From a virus, in IMG/VR virus record IMGVR_UViG_3300037149_000100: DNA of 64,000 nt; one strand, 5' to 3'. Shown in pieces: positions 31,910 to 61,093 of the stretch (position 1 is its first letter; every line of letters starts with the position of its first letter). The position numbers and the translations under genes are program-made. The notes beneath the pieces were generated by a model. The model did no database searches and had not been told where the DNA came from. It worked only from the letters and a program-made list of their open reading frames with translations.

Positions 31910-33046
31910 ATGCTTGAAGTTCAGAAGTTCCTTAAGAACGGCGGAACTCTTGAGATGCTCAAGGCAGACTACGGCATTAGTGCTCGTGTGAACGAGAGGC
32001 TGGGGGTAACTTGCCTCAATTACTCTCAAATCATGTCTCCAATGGGTCAGAAGATCGTCAGAGAGTGTCGTGCATTGGTGCTGGAGAGCACCACCTGGGA
32101 GGTGAAGTCATGCTCCTTCGAACGCTTCTTCAACTTCGGTGAGGGGCACATCCCCAAGGACTTTGACTGGGACAACTTCCAGACGCTGGAGAAGCTGGAT
32201 GGGTCGCTGATTCACTTCTGGTTCCATGACACTGAAGGCTGGCAGTGCGGCACCCGTTCGGTTCCGGATGCGGATACCGGCATGGATGACTCCGGTCTCA
32301 CATTCAAGCAGTTGGTCATCCAGACCATCAATGAGATGGGATCGTGTTGGGCTCACTGGACCGACAGCCTCATTCCAGGCTACACTTTTACCTTTGAATT
32401 GACCTCGCCAGAAAATATGATTGTGTGTGATTACCGGGGTCAGCGTAAGCTCACTCTGATTGGTATCCGCAACCTCGAAACCCTCAAGGAGGTGGATGTC
32501 CACCAGTGGCATCAGCCAGGGTATATTGCCCCCTGGCCGGTCGTGAAGCGTTACCCTGGCTTCACCCTGGATGCGGTGCAAGAAGCTGTACAGAAGCGTG
32601 ACCCGCATGACTTCGAGGGTTATGTGCTGGTGGATAAGAACTTTAACAGGGTGAAGATCAAGTCCTCCGCTTACGTGTTCATGTCCAGTCGTCGTGATTC
32701 CCTTGGGAAGTCGAACAAGGCACGGATCGAACTGATCCAAAATGATGCGGTGGATGATGTGCTGTCTAGCCTGCCTGAGTTCGTTCAGGGGAAAATCCTG
32801 GGTCTCCAACGGAAGCTCAAGACCCTGGTCCAGACCTGTGATGCCCTCTATCAGGCTGTAAAGGATGAGGATACCGATAAGGACTTCGCCCTGAAGGTCC
32901 AGCACGGGGGCTACAGCAGTGTCATGTTCGCTCTGCGGCGTGGCAAGGCTGTGGATTCGTGGGAGCATTTCAAGCGGATGAGCCCCAAGCGAGTATTAGA
33001 GTATCTGGATGAAGAAGACGACGAAGAGGAGACGGTATGCGAATAA
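31910..33046 (+). CDS. RNA ligase (T4 Rnl1-like)
   Basis: RECRALV, RFFN.GE, EKLDGS, FELTSP.N.IV, EGYV, RVKIKS. Confidence 0.85.
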   Translation: MLEVQKFLKNGGTLEMLKADYGISARVNERLGVTCLNYSQIMSPMGQKIVRECRALVLESTTWEVKSCSFERFFNFGEGHIPKDFDWDNFQTLEKLDGSLIHFWFHDTEGWQCGTRSVPDADTGMDDSGLTFKQLVIQTINEMGSCWAHWTDSLIPGYTFTFELTSPENMIVCDYRGQRKLTLIGIRNLETLKEVDVHQWHQPGYIAPWPVVKRYPGFTLDAVQEAVQKRDPHDFEGYVLVDKNFNRVKIKSSAYVFMSSRRDSLGKSNKARIELIQNDAVDDVLSSLPEFVQGKILGLQRKLKTLVQTCDALYQAVKDEDTDKDFALKVQHGGYSSVMFALRRGKAVDSWEHFKRMSPKRVLEYLDEEDDEEETVCE

Positions 33047-39645: not shown

Positions 39646-39794
39646 TGGAGCCAACCCGAAAATCCTTGACAATTTCATAAAGCAAATTTAGTAACCCACC
39701 CTCCGCTTTAGGGCGAGGGGTGAAGGGTTCGGGGAGGGCTCCAGAAACTCCTCACTTGAAAAAATGGGCTACACACCTCTTAATTGAGGTGTGT

Positions 39795-40424
39795 ATGTTC
39801 AAGTCATGTATTCATTGTTCGAAAGAGTTCCAGGCCAAGGACAACAGAAAGAAGTTCTGCTCTCAGTCCTGTTCAGCTTCTCACGCGCAATTAGGGAAGC
39901 CGAGCCACAACCAAAAGAAGCCACGAAACCTGTGCTACTGTGGTAGCCCAATCGAAAACCCAGTCAGCGTGTTCTGTAGTGACCAGTGCCGCCAATCCCA
40001 AAAGATGGGAGGTATCACCGAATGGGTACAGGGCGGTCCAGCCCCGCTAGGGCCAGAATCAATCACCCGCTGGGTTAAGAAGTTGCGAGGAAGTGCCTGT
40101 GAAGAATGCGGGTGGGACCAACAAAACCCGGTATCAGGTAGGAGCCAGACCCAGGTGGACCACATAGATGGGGACAGCACCAACCTGATGTACACCAACC
40201 TCAAAGTGCTCTGCCCCAACTGTCACTCCATGACCCCCACATTCGGGAGCTTAAACCGAGGAAAAGGGACAAGGACTAAACGGTTCTCCAACCTCGTGCT
40301 ACTTCCACGCATCTGCCCCACTTGTGGTGACTCGTTCACTCCAATCAGCAAAAGGCACACAAGCTGTTCTCGTAAGTGCCGGGGTAAGGCAACGTATCAA
40401 AAACAAATATCTCGGAGTAGTTAA
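39795..40424 (+). CDS. HNH endonuclease with Zn-finger repeats
   Basis: CEECG...QVDHIDGD..N....NL..LCPNCH; FCS..C repeats. Confidence 0.85.
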   Translation: MFKSCIHCSKEFQAKDNRKKFCSQSCSASHAQLGKPSHNQKKPRNLCYCGSPIENPVSVFCSDQCRQSQKMGGITEWVQGGPAPLGPESITRWVKKLRGSACEECGWDQQNPVSGRSQTQVDHIDGDSTNLMYTNLKVLCPNCHSMTPTFGSLNRGKGTRTKRFSNLVLLPRICPTCGDSFTPISKRHTSCSRKCRGKATYQKQISRSS

Positions 40425-40494: not shown

Positions 40495-40557
40495 TAGACA
40501 CTAACAGCAACCCAAAATTTCACCTTTGGCTGTGAAAAGCAAAATGTGTCGTGTCTA
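40495..40557 (+). ncRNA. AGAC-TAACAGCAA family element, short copy
   Basis: TAGACAC/GTGTCTA terminal stem followed by TAACAGCAA. Confidence 0.55.
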
Positions 40558-40558
40558 C

Positions 40559-40645
40559 GCTCTCGTAGCTGAAAGGATCAGCACCGGTCTACGAAACCGG
40601 GTACGTAACAGTCATACGCAGGTTCGAATCCTGTCGGGAGTACCA
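40559..40645 (+). tRNA. tRNA-Arg(ACG) with long variable region
   Basis: Loop CTACGAA, TTCGAAT T loop, ACCA. Confidence 0.85.
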
Positions 40646-40754
40646 TTCGCTGAAGGCCATTGGTGAATTAGGAGAATCCCCTCCTAGCTGATGGTGTTGT
40701 TGTGAGACTTGGGAAAGTCCAGGGGTGCCGATACACTCTCTTCAGTGAACCTAT

Positions 40755-40821
40755 CTCACTCGTAGCTCAGTTGGTAGAGCTTCAGTTTGTCGGGAGTTCG
40801 AGTCTCTCCGAGTGCGTTCCA
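40755..40821 (+). ncRNA. tRNA-like RNA lacking the anticodon arm
   Basis: Acceptor CACTCG/CGAGTG, canonical D arm and T arm, only about 11 nt between them. Confidence 0.6.
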
Positions 40822-40940
40822 AGAGTCAAGTCGTGAGACTTCGCGGTGTCTGTGAGCAGGATAAGGTCGCAGCGGGACAATGGAAGGGACGGATCGATAT
40901 GCCGTCACCGGAACCTAACCGGTAACTTTTTCGTAAACAT

Positions 40941-41027
40941 GCAACAGCAACAAAGTTGGAGAGTTGTGGCAGGCCGTAACCCTGTTGGATTAATCCTGAG
41001 AGAGTTCGAATCTCTCCTGTTGCACCA
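40941..41027 (+). tRNA. tRNA-Tyr(GTA), C33 variant
   Basis: Loop CCGTAAC, long variable arm, ACCA. Confidence 0.8.
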
Positions 41028-41030
41028 AAT

Positions 41031-41117
41031 GTCGGTCGCGCCTCACTGGACGGGGCACCAGTCTGTAAAACTGGCGGGAGCAATCCCTACTGGGTTCGAT
41101 TCCCAGGGTCGGCACCA
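41031..41117 (+). tRNA. tRNA-Tyr(GTA)
   Basis: Loop CTGTAAA, long variable arm, ACCA. Confidence 0.85.
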
Positions 41118-41118
41118 T

Positions 41119-41194
41119 GGCCCCATAGCTTAAACGGATAGAGCTTAGCCCTGCGAAGGCTACGGTTCCGGTTCAATTCCGGATGGGACTACCA
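41119..41194 (+). tRNA. tRNA-Arg(GCG)
   Basis: Loop CTGCGAA, ACCA. Confidence 0.8.
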
Positions 41195-41261
41195 AGTCTT
41201 GGTTGACAAAAAAGGTCATGATAAACATCGAACTTCTTCTTCCTCCTTTGTAGGAGAGAGC

Positions 41262-42317
41262 ATGAAAGTTCTGTTTATTCTGAAGCACAGGGACACTTAC
41301 TGGGGGGACTACTCCTCAACTACCACTTTGTCGTCTGGGCTATCTAATTCGGCCCAGTTCGTCTGCGATGCGTTGAATCTTTCAGGTGAGATCACCGCTA
41401 AGCTGGTGCAAGTAGAGGACAACAATCAAATTGACAAGGAAGTCACCCTATTCCGGCCTGATGTCTGCATTATCGAGGCTTACTGGGTTGTTCCGGAGAA
41501 GTTTGGGGTTCTGATTCCCCTTCACCCCCAGGTCAAATGGGTTGTTCACAACCATAGCGAGATTCCTTTCCTGGCCCAAGAGGGCATTGCAATTGATTGG
41601 AGCATTCGTTATCTTCAATACCCGAATGTCTTCGTCAGTGGCAACTCCCCACGGTCCTACCAGGACATGATTAATTTCCTGGTTCCAGTATATGGATTTG
41701 ATGCCATCAAACGGGTTCTGTTCCTGCCCAACATCTACCCATCTGTCCATCGTCGTCACTGCATCCCAAAGAAGCGGAACCACACCTTGGATATCAGTTG
41801 CTTCGGGGCCATCCGGCCCTTGAAGAACCACCTTCTCCAGGCTATGACTGCTATCGACTATGCGAACCAACGGCATTACAACTTGCGTTTCCACATTAAT
41901 GGGAGTAGAATTGAGGGGGGCTCAGCCTCAAACTCAATTCTCAAGAATCTGCAACTGTTGTTCCAGCACACACCCAACTGCGAATTAGTTGAACATCCTT
42001 GGTATCCACATGACGAGTTTCTGGGTATTATGGAACAGATGGATGTTTCGATGCAAGTCAGCTTCAGCGAGACGTTTAACATCATCTCAGCGGATGCGGC
42101 GACTGTCGGAGTCCCTATCGTCACTTCTTCTGAAGTGCTTTGGGCACCATGGTTCACCAGAGCCACCCCTACCTCCGCTCGTAGCATCCGGAAACGGCTG
42201 GACTTCATGCTGAAGTATGGCCCTCTCCCCGCAGTCGAGTGGTTGGTCCAGAACAGTCTGAATACTTACAGCAAAGAATCGCTGAAACAGTGGCTGTTTG
42301 ACTTGAAGAAACTGTAA
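41262..42317 (+). CDS. Glycosyltransferase (GT-B/GT4-like)
   Basis: FGAIRPLKN, SFSETFNI..AD...GVPIV. Confidence 0.75.
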   Translation: MKVLFILKHRDTYWGDYSSTTTLSSGLSNSAQFVCDALNLSGEITAKLVQVEDNNQIDKEVTLFRPDVCIIEAYWVVPEKFGVLIPLHPQVKWVVHNHSEIPFLAQEGIAIDWSIRYLQYPNVFVSGNSPRSYQDMINFLVPVYGFDAIKRVLFLPNIYPSVHRRHCIPKKRNHTLDISCFGAIRPLKNHLLQAMTAIDYANQRHYNLRFHINGSRIEGGSASNSILKNLQLLFQHTPNCELVEHPWYPHDEFLGIMEQMDVSMQVSFSETFNIISADAATVGVPIVTSSEVLWAPWFTRATPTSARSIRKRLDFMLKYGPLPAVEWLVQNSLNTYSKESLKQWLFDLKKL

Positions 42318-42388
42318 TACAAGCTGGTGCCTGCGTGACCGTCCCAGTCATAAGAGCAAAGGTCGTTAAAATTGCCACCAGTTTCCTT

Positions 42389-42476
42389 GGAAGATCGGCA
42401 AAGTTGGAGAGTTGCACTAGTTTGCTAAACTAGAGGCGTTCGCGTCTAGAGGGTTCGATTCCCTTATCTTCCGCCA
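42389..42476 (+). tRNA. tRNA-Ser(GCT)
   Basis: Loop TTGCTAA, long variable arm, GCCA. Confidence 0.85.
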
Positions 42477-42477
42477 T

Positions 42478-42593
42478 AAGACCCTAACAGCAATTAAAAT
42501 TCCCTGTTAAGGAGGTGGTAGCAGGTCCGACTCCTGCCGAACTGACATATCAGTTCGTAGCTCATCGGTCAGAGCACCTAGAAATTGGGTCTT
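42478..42593 (+). ncRNA. Circularly permuted tRNA-like RNA
   Basis: AAGACCC/GGGTCTT stem, TAACAGCAA, CTGTTAA, T arm, closed acceptor hairpin, D arm. Confidence 0.75.
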
Positions 42594-42771
42594 GATTTAT
42601 CTGGGTTCAGCAATGTGCTGTGGGGCCACCCCCACGGTTCCGGAGACGTTAGCTGACGAAAGCTGAGGGACGCTTCCCTTGGGCCAACCCCTTCGTGATC
42701 AATCGGCTGGTACTACGTGAGAGTCGTAGCTTGCCACCCCCGATGGTGGGCTGTAGCAGATCACGATTCAC

Positions 42772-42849
42772 GCTCCTATGGCGCAATTGGCGAGACGCCT
42801 ATGACTCAGACTCATAGTTCTGTCGGTTCGACTCCGACTAGGAGCACCA
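42772..42849 (+). tRNA. tRNA-Leu(CAG) with short variable loop
   Basis: Loop CTCAGAC, ACCA. Confidence 0.8.
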
Positions 42850-42850
42850 A

Positions 42851-42943
42851 AAGACCCTAACAGCAATTAACCCTTTTGCCTTGTACAGCAAACGAAGCGT
42901 GGTTCGACTCCACGGATGGCGTGGGCCTAGTTAAACGGGTCTT
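42851..42943 (+). ncRNA. AGAC-TAACAGCAA family element with T arm
   Basis: AAGACCC/GGGTCTT stem, TAACAGCAA, CGTGG-TTCGACT-CCACG. Confidence 0.65.
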
Positions 42944-42961
42944 GACTTTTTGCATCACCAT

Positions 42962-43038
42962 AGTCTCATCGTCTAGTGGCCAAGGACGCTTGCCTCTCAC
43001 GCAAGAAATCACGGGTTCGACTCCCGTTGGGACTACCA
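42962..43038 (+). tRNA. tRNA-Glu(CTC)
   Basis: Loop CTCTCAC, ACCA. Confidence 0.88.
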
Positions 43039-43153
43039 AAGACTCTAACAGCAATCCAAAATTCCCTGTTAAGGACGAGGTAGTGGGTCCGACTCCCACT
43101 GAGGCAGCACATAGCCTCATAGCTCATCGGTAGAGCGCGTATAAACGAGTCTT
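43039..43153 (+). ncRNA. Circularly permuted tRNA-like RNA
   Basis: AAGACTC/GAGTCTT stem, TAACAGCAA, CTGTTAA, T arm, TGAGGC/GCCTCA acceptor hairpin, D arm. Confidence 0.75.
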
Positions 43154-43159
43154 GACCAT

Positions 43160-43233
43160 GGTCCCATGGTGTAATGGAAACATACCTGCCTGTCACGTAG
43201 GAGAAGCGAGGTCAGTACTCGTTGGGACCGCCA
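43160..43233 (+). tRNA. tRNA-Asp(GTC) with atypical T loop
   Basis: Loop CTGTCAC, T loop GTCAGTA, GCCA. Confidence 0.75.
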
Positions 43234-43284
43234 AAATTCAACTATTGAATCCTCTGTAGCGGGGAGTACGCAGCCCGTTACGGT

Positions 43285-43476
43285 GTGGATGTTCTGGAAG
43301 AACGCTTCGAAGATGGTGAGGCAGCGATCATCAACGACCCCGATCCTCAGTGGGTCGCGTGGTATGACAACCGGTTGTTCTCCAACCTCTACCTAGAGTG
43401 GAATCGGCAACACCCGGAACTCCCTCCCATCGATCCTGATGAGGAGCCAGATGAACCGGATGAACCAGAAGATTAA
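43285..43476 (+). CDS. Small acidic protein
   Basis: RBS GGGGAG; 63-aa ORF. Confidence 0.5.
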   Translation: MDVLEERFEDGEAAIINDPDPQWVAWYDNRLFSNLYLEWNRQHPELPPIDPDEEPDEPDEPED

Positions 43477-43483
43477 AAACCAT

Positions 43484-43569
43484 GCGACTGTACCCGAATT
43501 GGTATAGGGGCCAGCTTGAGGTGCTGGTGGTGCAAGCCATTGTGGGTTCGAGTCCCACCAGTCGTACCA
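43484..43569 (+). tRNA. tRNA-Leu(GAG)
   Basis: Loop TTGAGGT, long variable arm, ACCA. Confidence 0.88.
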
Positions 43570-43865
43570 TTCTGGCACTAACCAGTAGGGCCTGTTCGAT
43601 GGGTTCGAAACCGGAGATCAGTGGCTCAGCTTACTACCCTTTGATGTTTGCTGAGTGAAACCTACTGGGAGTATAAAGCCTTTGCCGCCAACGTAGCGGA
43701 TAATACCGAAAGTATTTTGTGCTCTTTCGGGCCAGATAATCAAAGCCCACGGAAGATGATGGGGTTAAAGTCTCCTTCCACTACCAACATGTGGATGCTC
43801 ATGACGAGCGCCGTGGTGCCAATCGTTACCCCTAGAGTTTTGGAGATTTAGGGGTAACTCAGCCT

Positions 43866-43939
43866 GTGGCTATAGTTCAATGGTAGAACGGAAGATTGTG
43901 ATTCTTCTCATGAGGGTTCGATTCTCTCTAGTCACCCCA
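43866..43939 (+). tRNA. tRNA-His(GTG)
   Basis: Loop TTGTGAT, C73, CCA; position -1 is T. Confidence 0.85.
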
Positions 43940-44048
43940 TTCACTAGACCAGGACAAGGTTGTCCCTTCTCGCCGGAGAGGTCTGAGGTTCGATTCCTCT
44001 TAAAGACGGTCAAGTGGTTCGATTCCACAGTCTAGTGATTCATTCAAT

Positions 44049-44135
44049 GCCCGTAGCGCCACACGGTCGAGGCAGACGCCTGATAAGCGTCCTACGTAAC
44101 AGTTCAAGCAGGTTCGACTCCTGCTGCGGGTACCA
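44049..44135 (+). tRNA. tRNA-Ile(GAT) with long variable region
   Basis: Loop CTGATAA, ACCA. Confidence 0.8.
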
Positions 44136-44436
44136 ATCTTAGGGCGGCGTGGGATATAGACACGCAATCAGGCACTGATCCTGTCTGATACTTGAGGTGC
44201 TAACTGGAGGCGAACGTGAACAAATCCAGGACAACATGTGTGAGTGGCCATACCGCATGTTAGAAGCTGTGGGAGTCATGCCCCATCTCTAAGACTTTTC
44301 TTCGCCAAAACGCAGTATTAGATTGCAGGTAGCAACATCACCTGGAACCGCCCGATCCAACAGTGCCGAATTATAGTAACATTCTGACAAACAATCGGCC
44401 AATCGGGCGAGTTTATTTGACAATCAGTAAATCCAG

Positions 44437-44509
44437 TGCGGGACAGACCGGCCCTAGTTCAGGCCCATAACCTGATACGCAGGAGGTTCAATTCCTCCTC
44501 CCGCTTCCA
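44437..44509 (+). tRNA. tRNA-Met(CAT), initiator-like, C33, weak D arm
   Basis: 1:72 mismatch, loop CCCATAA, TCCA end. Confidence 0.7.
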
Positions 44510-44530
44510 TAATCATTTCAACACTTACAT

Positions 44531-44607
44531 GCCAGCCAAGCCAACTCGGGTGAGGCGCGAGATTCATATCCTCGATACGACCAGTTCGAAACTGGTGGCT
44601 GGTACCA
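44531..44607 (+). tRNA. tRNA-Met/Ile2(CAT)
   Basis: Loop TTCATAT, ACCA. Confidence 0.8.
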
Positions 44608-44609
44608 TT

Positions 44610-44691
44610 GGGTTAGAAGCAGAACGGTGCTGCACCAGCCTCTTAAGCTGGCTCTTCGGACTTGCGGGTTCAAATCCCGTCTAACCCACCA
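44610..44691 (+). tRNA. tRNA-Lys(CTT) with extended variable region
   Basis: Loop CTCTTAA, ACCA. Confidence 0.85.
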
Positions 44692-44791
44692 AAGCAGTAG
44701 CGGTGTTCAGCGGTTCTAGAGCCAATGAAGAATTCGGGGATAAATGCCTCTCCGTCTACAGCCTACCAGGGTTCTAGAACCCTGGTCTTAT

Positions 44792-44869
44792 GGGTCGATA
44801 GCTCAGGTCGGTTAGAGCGAAGGACTGAAAATCCTTAGATCCCTGTTCGAGATCAGGGTCGGCCCACCA
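44792..44869 (+). tRNA. tRNA-Phe(GAA)
   Basis: Loop CTGAAAA, ACCA. Confidence 0.85.
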
Positions 44870-44880
44870 TAAAACAAAAT

Positions 44881-44964
44881 GCTCCTATAGGCGAACTGGT
44901 CTAGCCACTGGATTTAGGTTCCAGGCCCTCGGGCGTCTCGGTTCGACTCCGAGTAGGAGCACCA
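44881..44964 (+). tRNA. tRNA-Leu(TAG)
   Basis: Loop TTTAGGT, variable arm, ACCA. Confidence 0.85.
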
Positions 44965-45000
44965 AAAAGTTGCTACCACACTCTCTAAAGAGGTGGGGCA

Positions 45001-45426
45001 TTGAACATTAAACAAGTCATCAAAGCAATTGGAAGACTCAACGAACGGGTAGCCGTATGGGGCACCAAGTGGTTTGGTTCCATGGTGGTGTTCTACCTGT
45101 TCTTCATCTGGGGCATGTTAGGCTTGATGCCGTTCATTCCCAAGAGCTTCCAAGACATCATCCTACTGGTCAGTTCTGCCTGGATTCAGTTGTGGGCGTT
45201 ACCTCTTTTGGCGGTCGGCACCGCAGTGCTGAATCGCACCTCGGAGGCACGGGCCTCCCAGGACCACGAGACCATCAAGAGCGAGTTCGAAGAAGTGAAG
45301 AACATGCACAAAGAAAATAGTGAGCTTCTCCGACTACTTAACGAGGAGACTGACGCTGACCGAGAGATGGATGCACGGATAAAACGCATCGAAACGATGT
45401 TGCTGGAGCAGAAGCATCAGAAGTAA
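45001..45426 (+). CDS. Membrane protein (DUF1003-like)
   Basis: FGSM..FY.F..W, two TM segments, SSAWIQL.ALPLL.VG, coiled coil. Confidence 0.6.
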   Translation: MNIKQVIKAIGRLNERVAVWGTKWFGSMVVFYLFFIWGMLGLMPFIPKSFQDIILLVSSAWIQLWALPLLAVGTAVLNRTSEARASQDHETIKSEFEEVKNMHKENSELLRLLNEETDADREMDARIKRIETMLLEQKHQK

Positions 45427-45428
45427 AT

Positions 45429-45504
45429 GGGTCCAAGGTGTTGAGGCGTGGCACACTGGTTTCGCACTCCAGAAGATCGAGTTGAACTCTCGATGGATCC
45501 ACCA
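45429..45504 (+). tRNA. tRNA-Ala(CGC)
   Basis: G3:U70, loop TTCGCAC, ACCA. Confidence 0.75.
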
Positions 45505-45539
45505 AATTGACTTTTCAAACCCTTAACTGAGGGGATTCA

Positions 45540-46016
45540 ATGTATCCAAGCCAAGCCACCAGGATGCTCTTTCGGTTGAAAAACCTACGTCTGCTACCTA
45601 AAGAGCTAGCCAGCAGGGCAAATGCCCAATGGCAAAAGCACGGAGACGCAATTTGGGAAGGATGTGGAACCCCAGAGGGCGATGGTATCTCAGCTTGGCT
45701 AGGTGATTTTGATGCCATGGGTGATGCTGATGAAGAGTTTCAGCGCAGTCGTGATATCTTAATGGCTGGAAAAGTATTATATCGAATCAGAGTGCAACAG
45801 AAAGAGATGAATTGGTCTGGGTTCAGTTTCCTCACCTACGGAAGATTCTGTCACTATGTTGGGCCACTCCCTCTGGCCTCACTGGAAAAGGTGCCCCTCG
45901 ATAAGTATGAGGATTGGTATGAGGTCTGTCCCAAGTGTTTGAAAGACACTGAGTTTCCAGATGAAGAAGATGGCTGTAAATGTAACCCTACCCCATTTGA
46001 AGAAGAACATTACTAA
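45540..46016 (+). CDS. Hypothetical protein
   Basis: RBS GAGGGG; C-terminal CPKC. Confidence 0.55.
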   Translation: MYPSQATRMLFRLKNLRLLPKELASRANAQWQKHGDAIWEGCGTPEGDGISAWLGDFDAMGDADEEFQRSRDILMAGKVLYRIRVQQKEMNWSGFSFLTYGRFCHYVGPLPLASLEKVPLDKYEDWYEVCPKCLKDTEFPDEEDGCKCNPTPFEEEHY

Positions 46017-46166
46017 CACCACGTGAGCCCTACCGTGGTAAAACAAAGGGTGGGTGATTGAAACTCGGCTGTCAAGCCAAGCTGCTCAGACATGGCGGAA
46101 CTTTCAATCTCACGGCAGTCCCTAAAACTGCTCAATTCGAGTATTAAACCTTTAGGAGTAGAAAAA

Positions 46167-46577
46167 ATGAAAATTGGTGATATCGTAACACTCAAAACCG
46201 GTGGTCCTCAGATGGGCATCGAATCTCTCTACAGCGCAGAGCCGGTGAATCGTTGGATCTGTGTGTGGTTCAAGGAAGGAATTGGCCATCAGAGGCTGGT
46301 TCATACGGAAGATGAGTTGACTTTGGTTGGAGCGGAAATCAAGGCTGCGGTTGAGACGAAACTGGAAGAGGCCAAGGCAGTGGTCGAGATTGCGGAAACC
46401 AAGGCTGCGGCTGAAGTTGCCAAGGTTGAAGTTCAAGCCAAGGCCGTTGAAGTCAAGGTTGAGGCGGAAGTCGCCAAGGCTGAAGTCCAGGCTGAGGCGG
46501 TTAAAACTGAAGTCGAAACCAAGGTTGAGACTGAAGTTGCCAAGGTTGAACCCAAGGCTCCCAAGGCTCAAAAATAA
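46167..46577 (+). CDS. YodC/DUF2158-like domain plus Ala/Glu/Lys/Val-rich repeat
   Basis: KIGDIVTLKTGGPQM...CVWF; EVAKVEV repeats. Confidence 0.7.
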   Translation: MKIGDIVTLKTGGPQMGIESLYSAEPVNRWICVWFKEGIGHQRLVHTEDELTLVGAEIKAAVETKLEEAKAVVEIAETKAAAEVAKVEVQAKAVEVKVEAEVAKAEVQAEAVKTEVETKVETEVAKVEPKAPKAQK

Positions 46578-46665
46578 TAAAAATTGTTGGACACCCTGGT
46601 TGCAAATACAGGGCGAATGTGATAGGGCGGTATCTATAAGTCGTGCCCTGTCCAACATCCATCAG

Positions 46666-46739
46666 TGCGGAGTAGCTCAGTGAAAGAGCACCGGGCTTAG
46701 TTCCGGAGGTCGGTGGTTCAAGTCCATCCTCCGCAACCA
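46666..46739 (+). tRNA. tRNA with fMet-like body and a non-canonical 6-nt anticodon loop
   Basis: CCGGG-CTTAGT-TCCGG; normal D and T arms; ACCA. Confidence 0.65.
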
Positions 46740-46796
46740 ATGCGTAACAGCCCCAGGTAGTGGGGGAGCCGGTTCTTAGCGCAACACCGGTATCAT

Positions 46797-46864
46797 ACGA
46801 CACGCACAGGGTGCAGATTGGACTCCAAATCCGATCTTGCGGAGTTCGAGCCTCCGGTGTCGTG
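46797..46864 (+). tRNA. tRNA-Trp(CCA) with minimal D arm
   Basis: Loop CTCCAAA; no encoded CCA. Confidence 0.7.
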
Positions 46865-46870
46865 CATAAA

Positions 46871-46950
46871 GGGGCATAGGGCTACTTGGGGTGGCCGCTT
46901 CCATGGCATGGAAGATATTCAGACGAGTTCAATTCTCGTATGCTCCACCA
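46871..46950 (+). tRNA. tRNA-Ala(GGC)
   Basis: G3:U70, loop ATGGCAT, ACCA. Confidence 0.8.
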
Positions 46951-47060
46951 TTTCAACACTTAAGACACACACAGCATTCAAATGGATAACGCCTTCGGGC
47001 CATTTGGTTCAAACCCAAAAATGCATCTTGATTTTCTGTTCCAAGGTTAGAGGTGCTTGC

Positions 47061-47883: not shown

Positions 47884-47961
47884 TCCCTCTTAGCTCAGTC
47901 TGGTAGATGCGCGAAGCTGTTAACTTCGATGTCGTCCGTTCAAATCGGACAGGGGGTGCCA
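47884..47961 (+). tRNA. tRNA-Asn(GTT)
   Basis: Loop CTGTTAA, GCCA. Confidence 0.8.
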
Positions 47962-61019: not shown

Positions 61020-61093
61020 GCAGCCGTAATTCATCGGTAGAATGGTTTGCTCTAACCAGACTTAGGCGGGTTCGACTCCTGTCGGCTGCACCA
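61020..61093 (+). tRNA. Amber-suppressor tRNA (anticodon CTA)
   Basis: GCAGCCG/CGGCTGC acceptor, ATTC/GAAT D stem, GTTTG-CTCTAAC-CAGAC, TTCGACT T loop, ACCA. Confidence 0.85.

What the first reader, a model, noticed from the sequence alone, without database searches (positions are those of the whole stretch)
40495..47029. Family of circularly permuted tRNA mimics with a shared AGAC-TAACAGCAA terminal module
Seen: at 42478 and 43039 the order is terminal stem, TAACAGCAA, an Asn-type CTGTTAA, T arm (GGTCCGACT), acceptor stem closed as a hairpin, D arm, terminal stem. That is a tRNA opened between the D and anticodon arms. Stems covary between copies (AAGACCC/GGGTCTT vs AAGACTC/GAGTCTT; GCAGG/CCTGC vs GTGGG/CCCAC). 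The same module carries reduced cargo at 42851 and 40495, and is degenerate at 46962. TAACAG is complementary to CTGTTA, so the anticodon could be masked or exposed. Known: bacterial Y RNAs (YrlA) have T-before-D tRNA mimicry and bind Ro60/TROVE proteins; permuted tRNA genes occur in some algae and archaea. Inference: a protein-binding handle with swappable tRNA-mimic cargo (nuclease decoys or RNP adaptors), or precursors religated by the phage Rnl1-like ligase.
Basis: partly seen in the sequence, partly recalled or inferred. Interest (0 to 1): 0.88.

Follow-up and report, generated by a model that had tools for sequence, protein, structure and literature searches.

The report
Phage tRNA-mimic RNAs with ACAGCAA handle
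Four small RNA genes among this large phage's tRNA genes share one conserved "handle" and carry tRNA look-alike parts; the same handle occurs in many phages next to a gene for a Ro60-shaped RNA-binding protein, a pairing I found in neither Rfam nor the papers I could search.

Summary
Four of the five reported copies are real: 40495-40557, 42478-42593, 42851-42943 and 43039-43153, all on the + strand. Each is a 7-bp closing stem (N-AGAC-N-C with G-N'-GUCU-N'), then UA-ACAGCAA, then variable cargo. The copy at 46962 is not supported.

Two copies (42478, 43039) carry a complete rotated tRNA: an Asn-type anticodon hairpin, T arm, sealed acceptor hairpin and D arm. They match only the tRNA-like core of Rfam YrlA (32 bits; threshold 69).

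The frame is a widespread phage RNA module:
- Its stem covaries and it sits in tRNA arrays.
- It travels with DUF2828 genes: 35 of 44 module-bearing records against 1 of 49 controls. Conversely, 73 of 80 DUF2828 loci hold a handle.
- A DUF2828 model matches Ro60 structures best.
- The handle has the architecture of Dictyostelium Class I RNAs.

Most likely these are Y-RNA-like partner RNAs that dock on a Ro60-like protein and display tRNA parts. The main weakness is that no DUF2828 or TROVE gene lies in the 106 kb held, about 37% of the genome. Maturation into a working tRNA by religation is unlikely.

This scan has noted the same handle family before, in many other genomes.

The parts
40495..40557 (+). 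Handle RNA E1 (63 nt). Closing stem 40495-40501 with 40551-40557; box UAACAGCAA 40502-40510; one cargo hairpin 40518-40537. Lies between tRNA-Val (ends 40484) and tRNA-Arg (starts 40559).
   Evidence: R1 43.1 bits (it was in the training set); independent R2 24.6 bits, E 0.001.
42478..42593 (+). Handle RNA E2 (116 nt) with a full rotated tRNA. Stem 42478-42484 with 42587-42593; box 42485-42493; Asn-type anticodon hairpin 42501-42513 (loop CUGUUAA 42504-42510); T arm 42521-42537; sealed acceptor hairpin 42538-42557; D arm 42560-42575. Starts 2 nt after the CCA of tRNA-Ser.
   Evidence: (z -3.6). Rfam YrlA 32 bits over model positions 23-86. R1 21.3 bits. Family covariation. Identical in independent assemblies L222 and L233.
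42851..42943 (+). Handle RNA E3 (93 nt). Stem 42851-42857 with 42937-42943; box 42858-42866; a second ACAGCAA at 42885-42891; T-arm-like hairpin 42898-42914. Starts 2 nt after the CCA of tRNA-Leu.
   Evidence: R1 30.8 bits; R2 29.3 bits, E 7e-5. The fold of the cargo is not well defined (z -0.6).
43039..43153 (+). Handle RNA E4 (115 nt) with a full rotated tRNA. Stem 43039-43045 with 43147-43153; box 43046-43054; Asn-type anticodon hairpin 43063-43075 (loop 43066-43072); T arm 43083-43099; sealed acceptor hairpin 43100-43119; D arm 43122-43136. Starts directly after the CCA of tRNA-Glu and ends 6 nt before tRNA-Asp.
   Evidence: (z -2.5). Rfam YrlA 31.8 bits. R1 28.1 bits. Covariation.
46962..47031 (+). 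Doubtful decayed copy (box ACAGCAU, closing strand mismatched).
   Evidence: 10.1 and 11.9 bits, E 7.4 and 1.9. No closing stem; z +0.39.
31910..33046 (+). Context: Rnl1-type RNA ligase gene. An RlaP nucleotidyltransferase gene lies outside the window at L125:2751-3794 (-).
   Evidence: Pfam PF09511 at 3.9e-14; PHROG 562; PF10127 at 1.7e-8.

Best explanation
The four elements are small non-coding RNAs transcribed with the phage's tRNA operon and released by tRNA processing. They belong to a widespread phage RNA family not in Rfam.

The constant part of that family is a handle: a 7-9 bp stem joining the 5' and 3' ends, two or three bases, an ACAGCAA box, and a trailing G. The variable part is built from tRNA pieces.

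By analogy with Y RNAs on Ro60, the handle most likely docks on a ring-shaped Ro60-like protein of the DUF2828 family. The cargo is displayed to enzymes that recognise tRNA. In E2 and E4 the cargo is a whole tRNA body with a tRNA-Asn anticodon loop and a sealed acceptor end, so it cannot be charged.

Given the neighbouring Rnl1 ligase, the RlaP nucleotidyltransferase and 29 tRNA genes, the particle probably serves tRNA repair or surveillance, or acts as a decoy during host attack on tRNAs.

Shown: the structure, its covariation, family membership, the link between handle and DUF2828 genes across phages, and the Ro60-like fold of the DUF2828 model. Inferred: physical binding, the presence of the protein in this phage, and the biological role.

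The frame recurs in other phages:
- 46 of 118 IMG/VR loci that hit the 14-base box pattern have the matching closing strand within 150 nt, where about 4 would be expected. They yield 107 distinct framed elements.
- The outermost stem pair, which was not used for selection, is paired in 30 of 31 elements as UA 13, AU 12, GC 4, GU 1.

Cargo:
- In 12 elements with full cargo, 13 of 24 pairs show compensatory changes in the T arm, the 8-bp acceptor hairpin and the closing stem.
- 57 of 106 elements hold a hairpin with a 7-nt anticodon- or T-type loop, against 17 in shuffles. 31 hold a T loop.
- CUGUUAA recurs in modules just upstream of DUF2828 genes. It equals the anticodon loop of this phage's tRNA-Asn at 47884-47961.

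Link to tRNA genes:
- 347 tRNAs in 415 kb of module loci, against 2 in 636 kb of control loci.

Link to the protein:
- PF11443 is in 35 of 44 module-bearing records (8 of 9 near-complete), against 1 of 49 controls (Fisher p 5e-16). That one control really holds a module.
- 73 of 80 loci picked by DUF2828 alone have a handle within 3 kb, and 141 of 150 handles are on the gene's strand. Shuffles give 8-19 loci.
- In 5 of 6 loci a module lies 35-650 nt upstream on the same strand.
- The DUF2828 model (pLDDT 75.6) matches Ro60 of Thermus phage phiLo, Xenopus and Deinococcus best, full length, E 5e-10 to 1e-6.

Precedent:
- Y RNAs with a tRNA-like domain bind Ro60 in bacteria and phages (PMC4201824; PMC12135203).
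- Jumbo phages carry TROVE proteins with RNA-repair genes (PMC7824862).
Against: - No DUF2828 or TROVE gene was found in the 106-kb record, either with the Pfam models or with a profile of six DUF2828 proteins at E up to 10.
- None was found in three fragments of close relatives, and none is listed on contigs that extend both ends.
- The two large unassigned proteins show no likeness to DUF2828.
- The record is only about 37% of the genome, so this absence is weak evidence. But 9 of 44 module-bearing records also lack the gene, one of them rated complete.
- Binding has not been shown for any member.
- No diverged orthologues of E2 or E4 were found, so their own covariation rests on two paralogues plus distant family members.
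- The independent model R2 does not score the two long copies, because of insert-length penalties.
Confidence: 0.55

Rival explanations
1. E2 and E4 are permuted pre-tRNA genes. The transcript is cut in the acceptor loop, and the handle is removed and religated (for example by the phage Rnl1 ligase) to give a working tRNA-Asn.
For: All tRNA parts are present in rotated order, with the loop CUGUUAA of the phage's own tRNA-Asn. An Rnl1-type ligase and an RlaP gene are in the genome. Permuted tRNA genes are known in some algae and archaea (my own knowledge).
Against: - The acceptor hairpins carry no CCA, although 27 of 29 tRNAs here encode it.
- The T loop reads UCCGACU, whereas the 25 array tRNAs with a recognisable T loop all keep GUUC.
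- The anticodon stem is only 3-4 bp.
- Two ordinary tRNA-Asn genes already exist.
- The same frame holds cargo that cannot form a tRNA, both in E1 and E3 and in most of the 107 family members.
- The frame itself is the most conserved part, which is unlike an excised spacer.
Confidence: 0.06
2. They are canonical Y RNAs of the YrlA family that bind a standard TROVE-domain Ro60 (Rsr), encoded by the phage or its host.
For: Sub-threshold YrlA matches cover the T arm, acceptor-like hairpin and D arm. Phage YrlA RNAs are known (PMC4201824).
Against: - Scores are 32 and 31.8 bits against a gathering score of 69.
- Only model positions 23-86 align; the YrlA Ro-binding helix (positions 1-22 and 87-114) is replaced by the ACAGCAA handle.
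- No TROVE gene is in the record.
- The handle travels with DUF2828, not PF05731.
Confidence: 0.1
3. They work without a dedicated protein. They could be stand-alone tRNA decoys or competitors for host anticodon nucleases or modification enzymes. Or they could be structured spacers that guide processing and stability of the tRNA operon transcript.
For: - Each element abuts tRNA genes: 0-2 nt after a CCA, and 1-18 nt before the next tRNA.
- No partner gene is in the DNA held.
- 9 of 44 module-bearing records lack DUF2828.
Against: A mere spacer would not keep an invariant 7-nt box and a covarying stem across unrelated phages. Nor would it sit in the 5' leader of DUF2828 genes away from tRNAs. 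Eight of the nine records lacking the gene are rated incomplete.
Confidence: 0.2
4. They are DNA-level repeats (a miniature mobile element, a recombination site or an endonuclease site with terminal inverted repeats), not RNAs.
For: They have 7-bp terminal inverted repeats. An HNH endonuclease gene lies next to the array at 39720-40424.
Against: - The repeats change by compensatory substitutions while the interior differs completely.
- Orientation is fixed relative to tRNA and DUF2828 genes (141 of 150).
- The interior holds tRNA-type helices that covary.
Confidence: 0.03

Closest known systems
YrlA-type bacterial and phage Y RNAs bound by Ro60/Rsr (Rfam RF02553; Chen et al. 2014, PMC4201824)
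   Same: Small RNAs closed by a 5'-3' stem. Their interior is a tRNA mimic in the order T arm, acceptor-like hairpin, D arm. The inferred partner has the Ro60 fold (helical-repeat ring plus vWA domain). They are often found with RNA-repair genes.
   Different: The protein-binding helix of YrlA is absent and replaced by a stem plus ACAGCAA box. Scores are below the family threshold. The linked protein family is DUF2828 (PF11443 with PF25043), not TROVE (PF05731). E2 and E4 also keep an anticodon hairpin, and many relatives carry only one tRNA piece.
Class I RNAs of dictyostelid social amoebae (Kjellin et al. 2021, PMC7919456)
   Same: The architecture is the same: a 6-7 bp stem joining the ends, an adjacent 11-nt motif, a variable interior and a trailing (U)G. 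The amoeba motif is CCUUACAGCAA, with U, C, C, A, A fixed at positions 3, 6, 9, 10, 11. E2 and E3 read CCUAACAGCAA.
   Different: Class I RNAs are eukaryotic and 42-65 nt long. They have their own upstream promoter element, are reported as unique to Dictyostelia, and are bound by the RRM protein Rnp1A/CIBP. No tRNA-like cargo is described. Homology with the phage handle is not shown.
Ro60 of Thermus phage phiLo with Yrl1/Yrl2 (PMC12135203; PDB 9KOP, 9L5Y)
   Same: A phage-encoded Ro60-type ring protein with small partner RNAs encoded just upstream of its gene. It is the best structural match of the DUF2828 model.
   Different: It is a true TROVE protein. Its RNAs were defined by a CGAA motif in an internal bulge, not by an ACAGCAA box, and no tRNA-array context is described.
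Circularly permuted tRNA genes (red alga Cyanidioschyzon and some archaea; from my own knowledge)
   Same: The 3' part of a tRNA is encoded upstream of the 5' part.
   Different: Those genes mature into functional tRNAs through a circular intermediate. Here the acceptor end is sealed without CCA, the break lies between the D and anticodon arms inside a conserved handle, and most relatives carry incomplete tRNA sets.

Membership tests
YrlA (Rfam RF02553) | Reaches the Rfam gathering score (69 bits) | tested here: not met
   32.0 and 31.8 bits for 42513-42580 and 43075-43141.
YrlA (Rfam RF02553) | tRNA-like domain in the order T arm, acceptor-like hairpin, D arm | tested here: met
   Aligned to model positions 23-86. 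The helices covary across 12 family members.
YrlA (Rfam RF02553) | YrlA-type Ro60-binding helix (model positions 1-22 and 87-114) | tested here: not met
   No alignment to those positions in E2 or E4. The consensus can be seen.
YrlA (Rfam RF02553) | Encoded next to a TROVE-domain Ro60 gene | tested here: not met
   No PF05731 match in the 106-kb record. The record is only about 37% of the genome.
ACAGCAA-handle phage RNAs (not in Rfam; defined here and in earlier notes of this scan) | 7-9 bp stem joining the 5' and 3' ends, kept by compensatory changes | tested here: met
   All four window copies have 7 of 7 pairs.
ACAGCAA-handle phage RNAs (not in Rfam; defined here and in earlier notes of this scan) | ACAGCAA box two to three bases after the 5' strand; trailing G after the 3' strand | tested here: met
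   The box is invariant in alignments A2, A3 and A5. The trailing G is present in E2-E4; E1 has C.
ACAGCAA-handle phage RNAs (not in Rfam; defined here and in earlier notes of this scan) | Significant score with a model built without reference to this window's stem sequence | tested here: inconclusive
   R2 gives E3 29.3 bits and E1 24.6 bits. E2 and E4 are not scored; their long inserts are penalised.
ACAGCAA-handle phage RNAs (not in Rfam; defined here and in earlier notes of this scan) | DUF2828 (PF11443) gene in the same genome | tested here: inconclusive
   Absent from the 106 kb held and from fragments of relatives. About 63% of the genome is unseen.
Dictyostelid Class I RNAs | Short terminal stem plus an adjacent 11-nt motif with U, C, C, A, A at positions 3, 6, 9, 10, 11 | tested here: met
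   E2 and E3 read CCUAACAGCAA, against CCUUACAGCAA in the paper's sequence files.
Dictyostelid Class I RNAs | Dictyostelid gene with upstream DUSE promoter element, 42-65 nt, bound by Rnp1A/CIBP | tested here: not met
   These are phage genes inside a tRNA operon, 63-116 nt long. Protein binding cannot be tested here.
Permuted tRNA genes | Matures into a functional, chargeable tRNA with a CCA end | not testable with these tools
   The sequence argues against it: no CCA in the acceptor loops, a deviant T loop, and a 3-4 bp anticodon stem.

The most novel reading that the evidence does not exclude
The stem-plus-ACAGCAA handle is an ancient, portable recognition element for Ro60-like DUF2828 proteins. 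It is shared by hundreds of phages and by the unexplained Class I RNAs of social amoebae. In this phage it presents sealed tRNA-Asn look-alikes as decoys or adaptors for enzymes that read the GUU-type anticodon loop, such as anticodon nucleases or the queuosine-inserting transglycosylase. That would protect or repair the phage's translation apparatus.
Probability: 0.25. Interest if true: 0.85.

Novelty: new variant of a known kind. Interest (0 to 1): 0.7.

Why it matters
Ro60 with its Y RNAs is a conserved RNA-surveillance particle. Its bacterial and viral branches are barely explored.

A second, widespread branch with a different handle and a divergent ring protein would do three things:
- It would enlarge the Ro60 system.
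- It would assign a function to DUF2828.
- It would explain many unannotated spacers in phage tRNA arrays.

The match to Dictyostelium Class I RNAs would give a 20-year-old orphan RNA class a testable partner hypothesis. The tRNA-shaped cargos also bear on how phages cope with host defences that cut tRNAs.

Tried and rejected
- Rfam: only partial YrlA matches cover the elements, at gathering or at E up to 10.
- Literature: searches for the box string returned only unrelated papers. Five papers mention DUF2828 and none concerns phage RNAs. A search on Ro60, phage and tRNA mimics found no description of this handle.
- Orthologues of E2 and E4: one viral-contig pattern was mis-spaced and found nothing. 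A second gave one chance coding hit. A metagenome pattern gave 38 hits, of which only one is a real match, and it is an identical copy of this phage.
- The 351-aa gene inside the array has no relatives in viral contigs. It is found exactly only in assemblies of the same phage.
- Relatives found through the terminase are short fragments with neither the array nor DUF2828.
- Contigs extending both ends of the record have no handle modules, and no DUF2828 is listed on them.
- Profile comparison of DUF2828 with the 473-aa and 944-aa unassigned proteins shows no relation. PHROGs gave no Ro60-like assignment near the array.
- A generic scan of the window (any stem plus ACNGCA) is no better than chance: 17 hits against 6-14 in shuffles. 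Only the four AGAC copies stand out.
- Rotating E2 and E4 back into normal tRNA order and comparing them with the 29 resident tRNAs gave no close parent.
- Promoter and terminator scans were uninformative.
- Searches were rejected for size or frame and were repeated correctly.

Full report
**Setting.** The window is the minus strand of bases 9024-73023 of a 106-kb IMG/VR virus record that CheckV rates 37% complete. It is therefore a fragment of a phage of roughly 290 kb. It carries 29 tRNA genes on the + strand, and 27 of them encode their CCA end. It also carries an Rnl1-type RNA ligase (31910-33046), an NAD-dependent DNA ligase, a RecA-like protein and an SNF2 helicase. Outside the window lie an RlaP nucleotidyltransferase, a family A DNA polymerase and a weakly terminase-like protein.

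**Observation.** The exact string AGACNCTAACAGCAA occurs four times, at 40496, 42479, 42852 and 43040, all on the + strand. The other matches, at three mismatches, are at chance level. Each exact copy is preceded by one base and followed 63-116 nt later by the exact complement of its first seven bases. This defines four elements:
- E1, 40495-40557
- E2, 42478-42593
- E3, 42851-42943
- E4, 43039-43153

Each element is wedged between tRNA genes. E2, E3 and E4 start 0-2 nt after a CCA end. E1 and E4 end 1 and 6 nt before the next tRNA.

The order is closing stem, UAACAGCAA, a short hairpin with loop CUGUUAA, a T arm, an 8- or 6-bp hairpin in the place of the acceptor stem, a D arm, and the closing stem. 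The two copies differ by compensatory changes in the closing stem and the T stem, and throughout the acceptor hairpin.

The proposed fifth copy at 46962 fails. It scores 10.1 and 11.9 bits with two handle models (E 7.4 and 1.9), forms no closing stem, and folds no better than shuffles.

**Relation to YrlA.** Rfam's YrlA model matches E2 and E4 at 32.0 and 31.8 bits, far below the gathering score of 69. Only model positions 23-86 align; this is the tRNA-like core. The flanks that form the Ro60-binding helix of YrlA (consensus shown) have no counterpart. E2 and E4 therefore resemble YrlA in design but are not members of that family. No other Rfam family covers any of the four elements.

- In 46 of these loci the matching closing strand lies within 150 nt, where about four would be expected. 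The remaining hits are chance matches in coding sequence.
- A descriptor scan of the positive loci found 107 distinct framed elements of 42-152 nt.
- In an alignment of 31 short members, the outermost pair was not used in selecting them. It is paired in 30 of 31 as UA 13, AU 12, GC 4 and GU 1. The variable inner pair takes all four Watson-Crick forms.
- When the two bases before ACAGCAA can pair with the 3' side, the stem extends to 8-9 bp.

The constant part is thus a stem, two or three bases, ACAGCAA and a trailing G. Everything between is cargo.

**Cargo is made of tRNA pieces.**
- 57 of 106 elements contain a hairpin with a 7-nt loop of anticodon or T-loop type, against 17 in shuffled cargo (maximum 25). 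31 contain a T-loop motif.
- Twelve elements with the full set (E2, E4 and ten from other phages) align well. They give a consensus of closing stem, T arm, 8-bp acceptor hairpin and D arm. In that consensus 13 of 24 pairs show compensatory changes and almost none are broken.
- Several of those relatives have, in the same place as E2 and E4, a 5-bp hairpin with an anticodon-type loop.
- The loop CUGUUAA recurs in many unrelated members, including modules just upstream of DUF2828 genes. It is identical to the anticodon loop of this phage's tRNA-Asn at 47884-47961.

The "Asn-type" label is therefore apt.

The idea that UAACAG masks CUGUUA has no comparative support. The box is conserved whether or not such a loop is present. 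In six of the nine cargos that carry CUGUUAA, the box offers only four complementary bases.

**Context across phages.** Module-bearing loci hold 347 tRNA genes in 415 kb. The control loci from the same scan hold 2 in 636 kb.

**The protein link.** Earlier notes of this scan named DUF2828 as a companion. I tested this in four ways.
- Forward: PF11443 is present in 35 of 44 full records that carry a module, and in 8 of 9 rated at least 90% complete. It is present in 1 of 49 control records, and in 0 of 7 complete ones. That single control (L065) does in fact contain a module whose closing strand my scan missed. Fisher's p is 5e-16.
- Reverse: of 80 viral loci chosen only for encoding a DUF2828 relative (at least 495 exist), 73 have a generic handle (any 7-bp stem, two bases, ACNGCAA, closing strand) within 3 kb. 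141 of 150 handles lie on the gene's strand. Shuffled loci give 8-19.
- Adjacency: in 5 of 6 loci a module lies 35-650 nt upstream of the gene on the same strand.
- Independent model: the stem sequence differs between lineages while the box is constant. A model built only from such non-AGAC modules still finds E3 (29.3 bits, E 7e-5) and E1 (24.6 bits, E 0.001) in the window. It penalises the long inserts of E2 and E4.

**Fold of the protein.** An AlphaFold model of one DUF2828 protein was built with a six-sequence alignment (pLDDT 75.6, pTM 0.62). It has an N-terminal helical-repeat region followed by an alpha/beta domain. Its best PDB matches, over the full length, are the Ro60 of Thermus phage phiLo, Xenopus Ro60 and Deinococcus Rsr (E 5e-10 to 1e-6). 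Isolated vWA/MIDAS domains follow. By sequence the link to TROVE is marginal (E 0.11). The family is also annotated with PF25043 and partly with VWA_2.

**What is missing here.** The 106-kb record holds no DUF2828 or TROVE gene by Pfam model or by profile.
- Three fragments of close relatives have none.
- No DUF2828 family is listed on contigs that extend both ends, and they hold no modules.
- The unassigned 473-aa and 944-aa proteins are unrelated to DUF2828.

About 63% of the genome is unseen, so this is weak negative evidence. It is still the main reason my confidence is moderate. Nine of 44 module-bearing records also lack the gene, one of them rated complete.

**Mechanism.** Y RNAs bind Ro60 through their closing stem and use the rest of the RNA to tether other factors. 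YrlA RNAs carry a tRNA-like domain that tRNA enzymes recognise (PMC4201824). A phage Ro60 binds RNAs encoded just upstream of its gene (PMC12135203). Jumbo phages combine TROVE proteins with RNA ligases, RlaP and tRNA-end repair enzymes (PMC7824862).

By analogy, the handle is the docking site for the DUF2828 ring, and the cargo is the working end. E2 and E4 would present a whole tRNA body that cannot be charged. E1 and E3 would present single hairpins. Whether the particle recruits repair enzymes, sequesters host nucleases or modification enzymes, or gates an exonuclease cannot be decided from sequence.

**The religation idea.** Several observations count against it:
- There is no CCA in the acceptor loops of E2 and E4.
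- The T loop is UCCGACU, where the 25 array tRNAs with a recognisable T loop all keep GUUC.
- The anticodon stem is very short.
- Two ordinary tRNA-Asn genes exist.
- The frame is more conserved than its contents.

**Class I RNAs.** The published description of dictyostelid Class I RNAs lists a 6-bp stem joining the ends, an adjacent 11-nt motif with U, C, C, A, A fixed at positions 3, 6, 9, 10, 11, a variable interior, and conserved terminal bases (PMC7919456). Their sequence files show the motif as CCUUACAGCAA followed later by the closing strand and UG. E2 and E3 read CCUAACAGCAA in the same position. The architecture is the same. Common descent, or a shared partner, is not shown here. The paper reports Class I RNAs as unique to Dictyostelia.

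**Novelty.** Ro60/Y-RNA particles, phage Ro60 and tRNA-like Y RNAs are all known. A handle of this sequence, its link to DUF2828, and its modular tRNA-piece cargos appear in neither Rfam 15 nor the papers I could search. I class it as a new variant of a known kind. The scan has recorded the same handle family many times in other genomes. I re-tested the central claims of those notes rather than relying on them.

Noticed in passing
window 43941-44038 (+): A further structured spacer between tRNA-His and tRNA-Ile. A 9-bp closing stem that again contains AGAC/GUCU encloses two small hairpins and two T-arm-like hairpins (z -2.9). It lacks the ACAGCAA box, and the handle models do not find it.
   Followed up: partly
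window 40756-40816 (+): A 61-nt tRNA-like element (Rfam tRNA 36.5 bits) with acceptor stem, D arm and T arm. Only 11 nt stand in place of the anticodon arm, and there is no CCA.
   Followed up: partly
window 46740-46868 (+): A region after the odd tRNA at 46666. A UAACAGCC string follows a short AUGC...GCAU closure. Inside are two hairpins and a tRNA-shaped fold with a UCC-type anticodon loop and no CCA, which ARAGORN did not call (z -2.2; R2 13.9 bits, E 0.6).
   Followed up: partly
window 40559-40645 and 44049-44135 (+): tRNA-Arg(ACG) and tRNA-Ile(GAU) are both 87 nt, with long variable regions that share the string ACGUAACAGU. This is unusual for these tRNA classes. Seven of the 17 UAACAG sites in the window fall within 40502-46745.
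   Followed up: partly
window 46666-46739 and 61020-61093 (+): One tRNA has a six-membered anticodon loop (ARAGORN could not name it). Another has anticodon CUA, which would read the amber stop codon. I did not check whether the phage recodes stop codons.
   Followed up: no
window 42885-42891 (+): E3 carries a second ACAGCAA inside its cargo, just before its T-arm-like hairpin.
   Followed up: no
L125:2751-3794 (-), the same phage outside the window: An RlaP-family nucleotidyltransferase gene (PF10127, 1.7e-8). With the Rnl1-type ligase in the window, it suggests an RNA-repair set.
   Followed up: partly
L136:12675-15458 (-), a contig extending the record's low end: A 927-aa protein with a faint C2c1 (Cas12b) RuvC-like hit, encoded next to this phage's AntA-domain gene.
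   Followed up: no
window 39720-40424 (+): An HNH endonuclease gene directly upstream of the first tRNA of the array. GIY-YIG endonuclease genes lie in the structural region (L132).
   Followed up: no
L026:10514-10612 and relatives (L030, L091, L108, L115): In another phage group the ACAGCAA frame encloses an RNA that aligns to the whole YrlA model, including part of its Ro-binding stem (40.6 bits). A YrlA-like RNA is thus nested inside the handle.
   Followed up: partly
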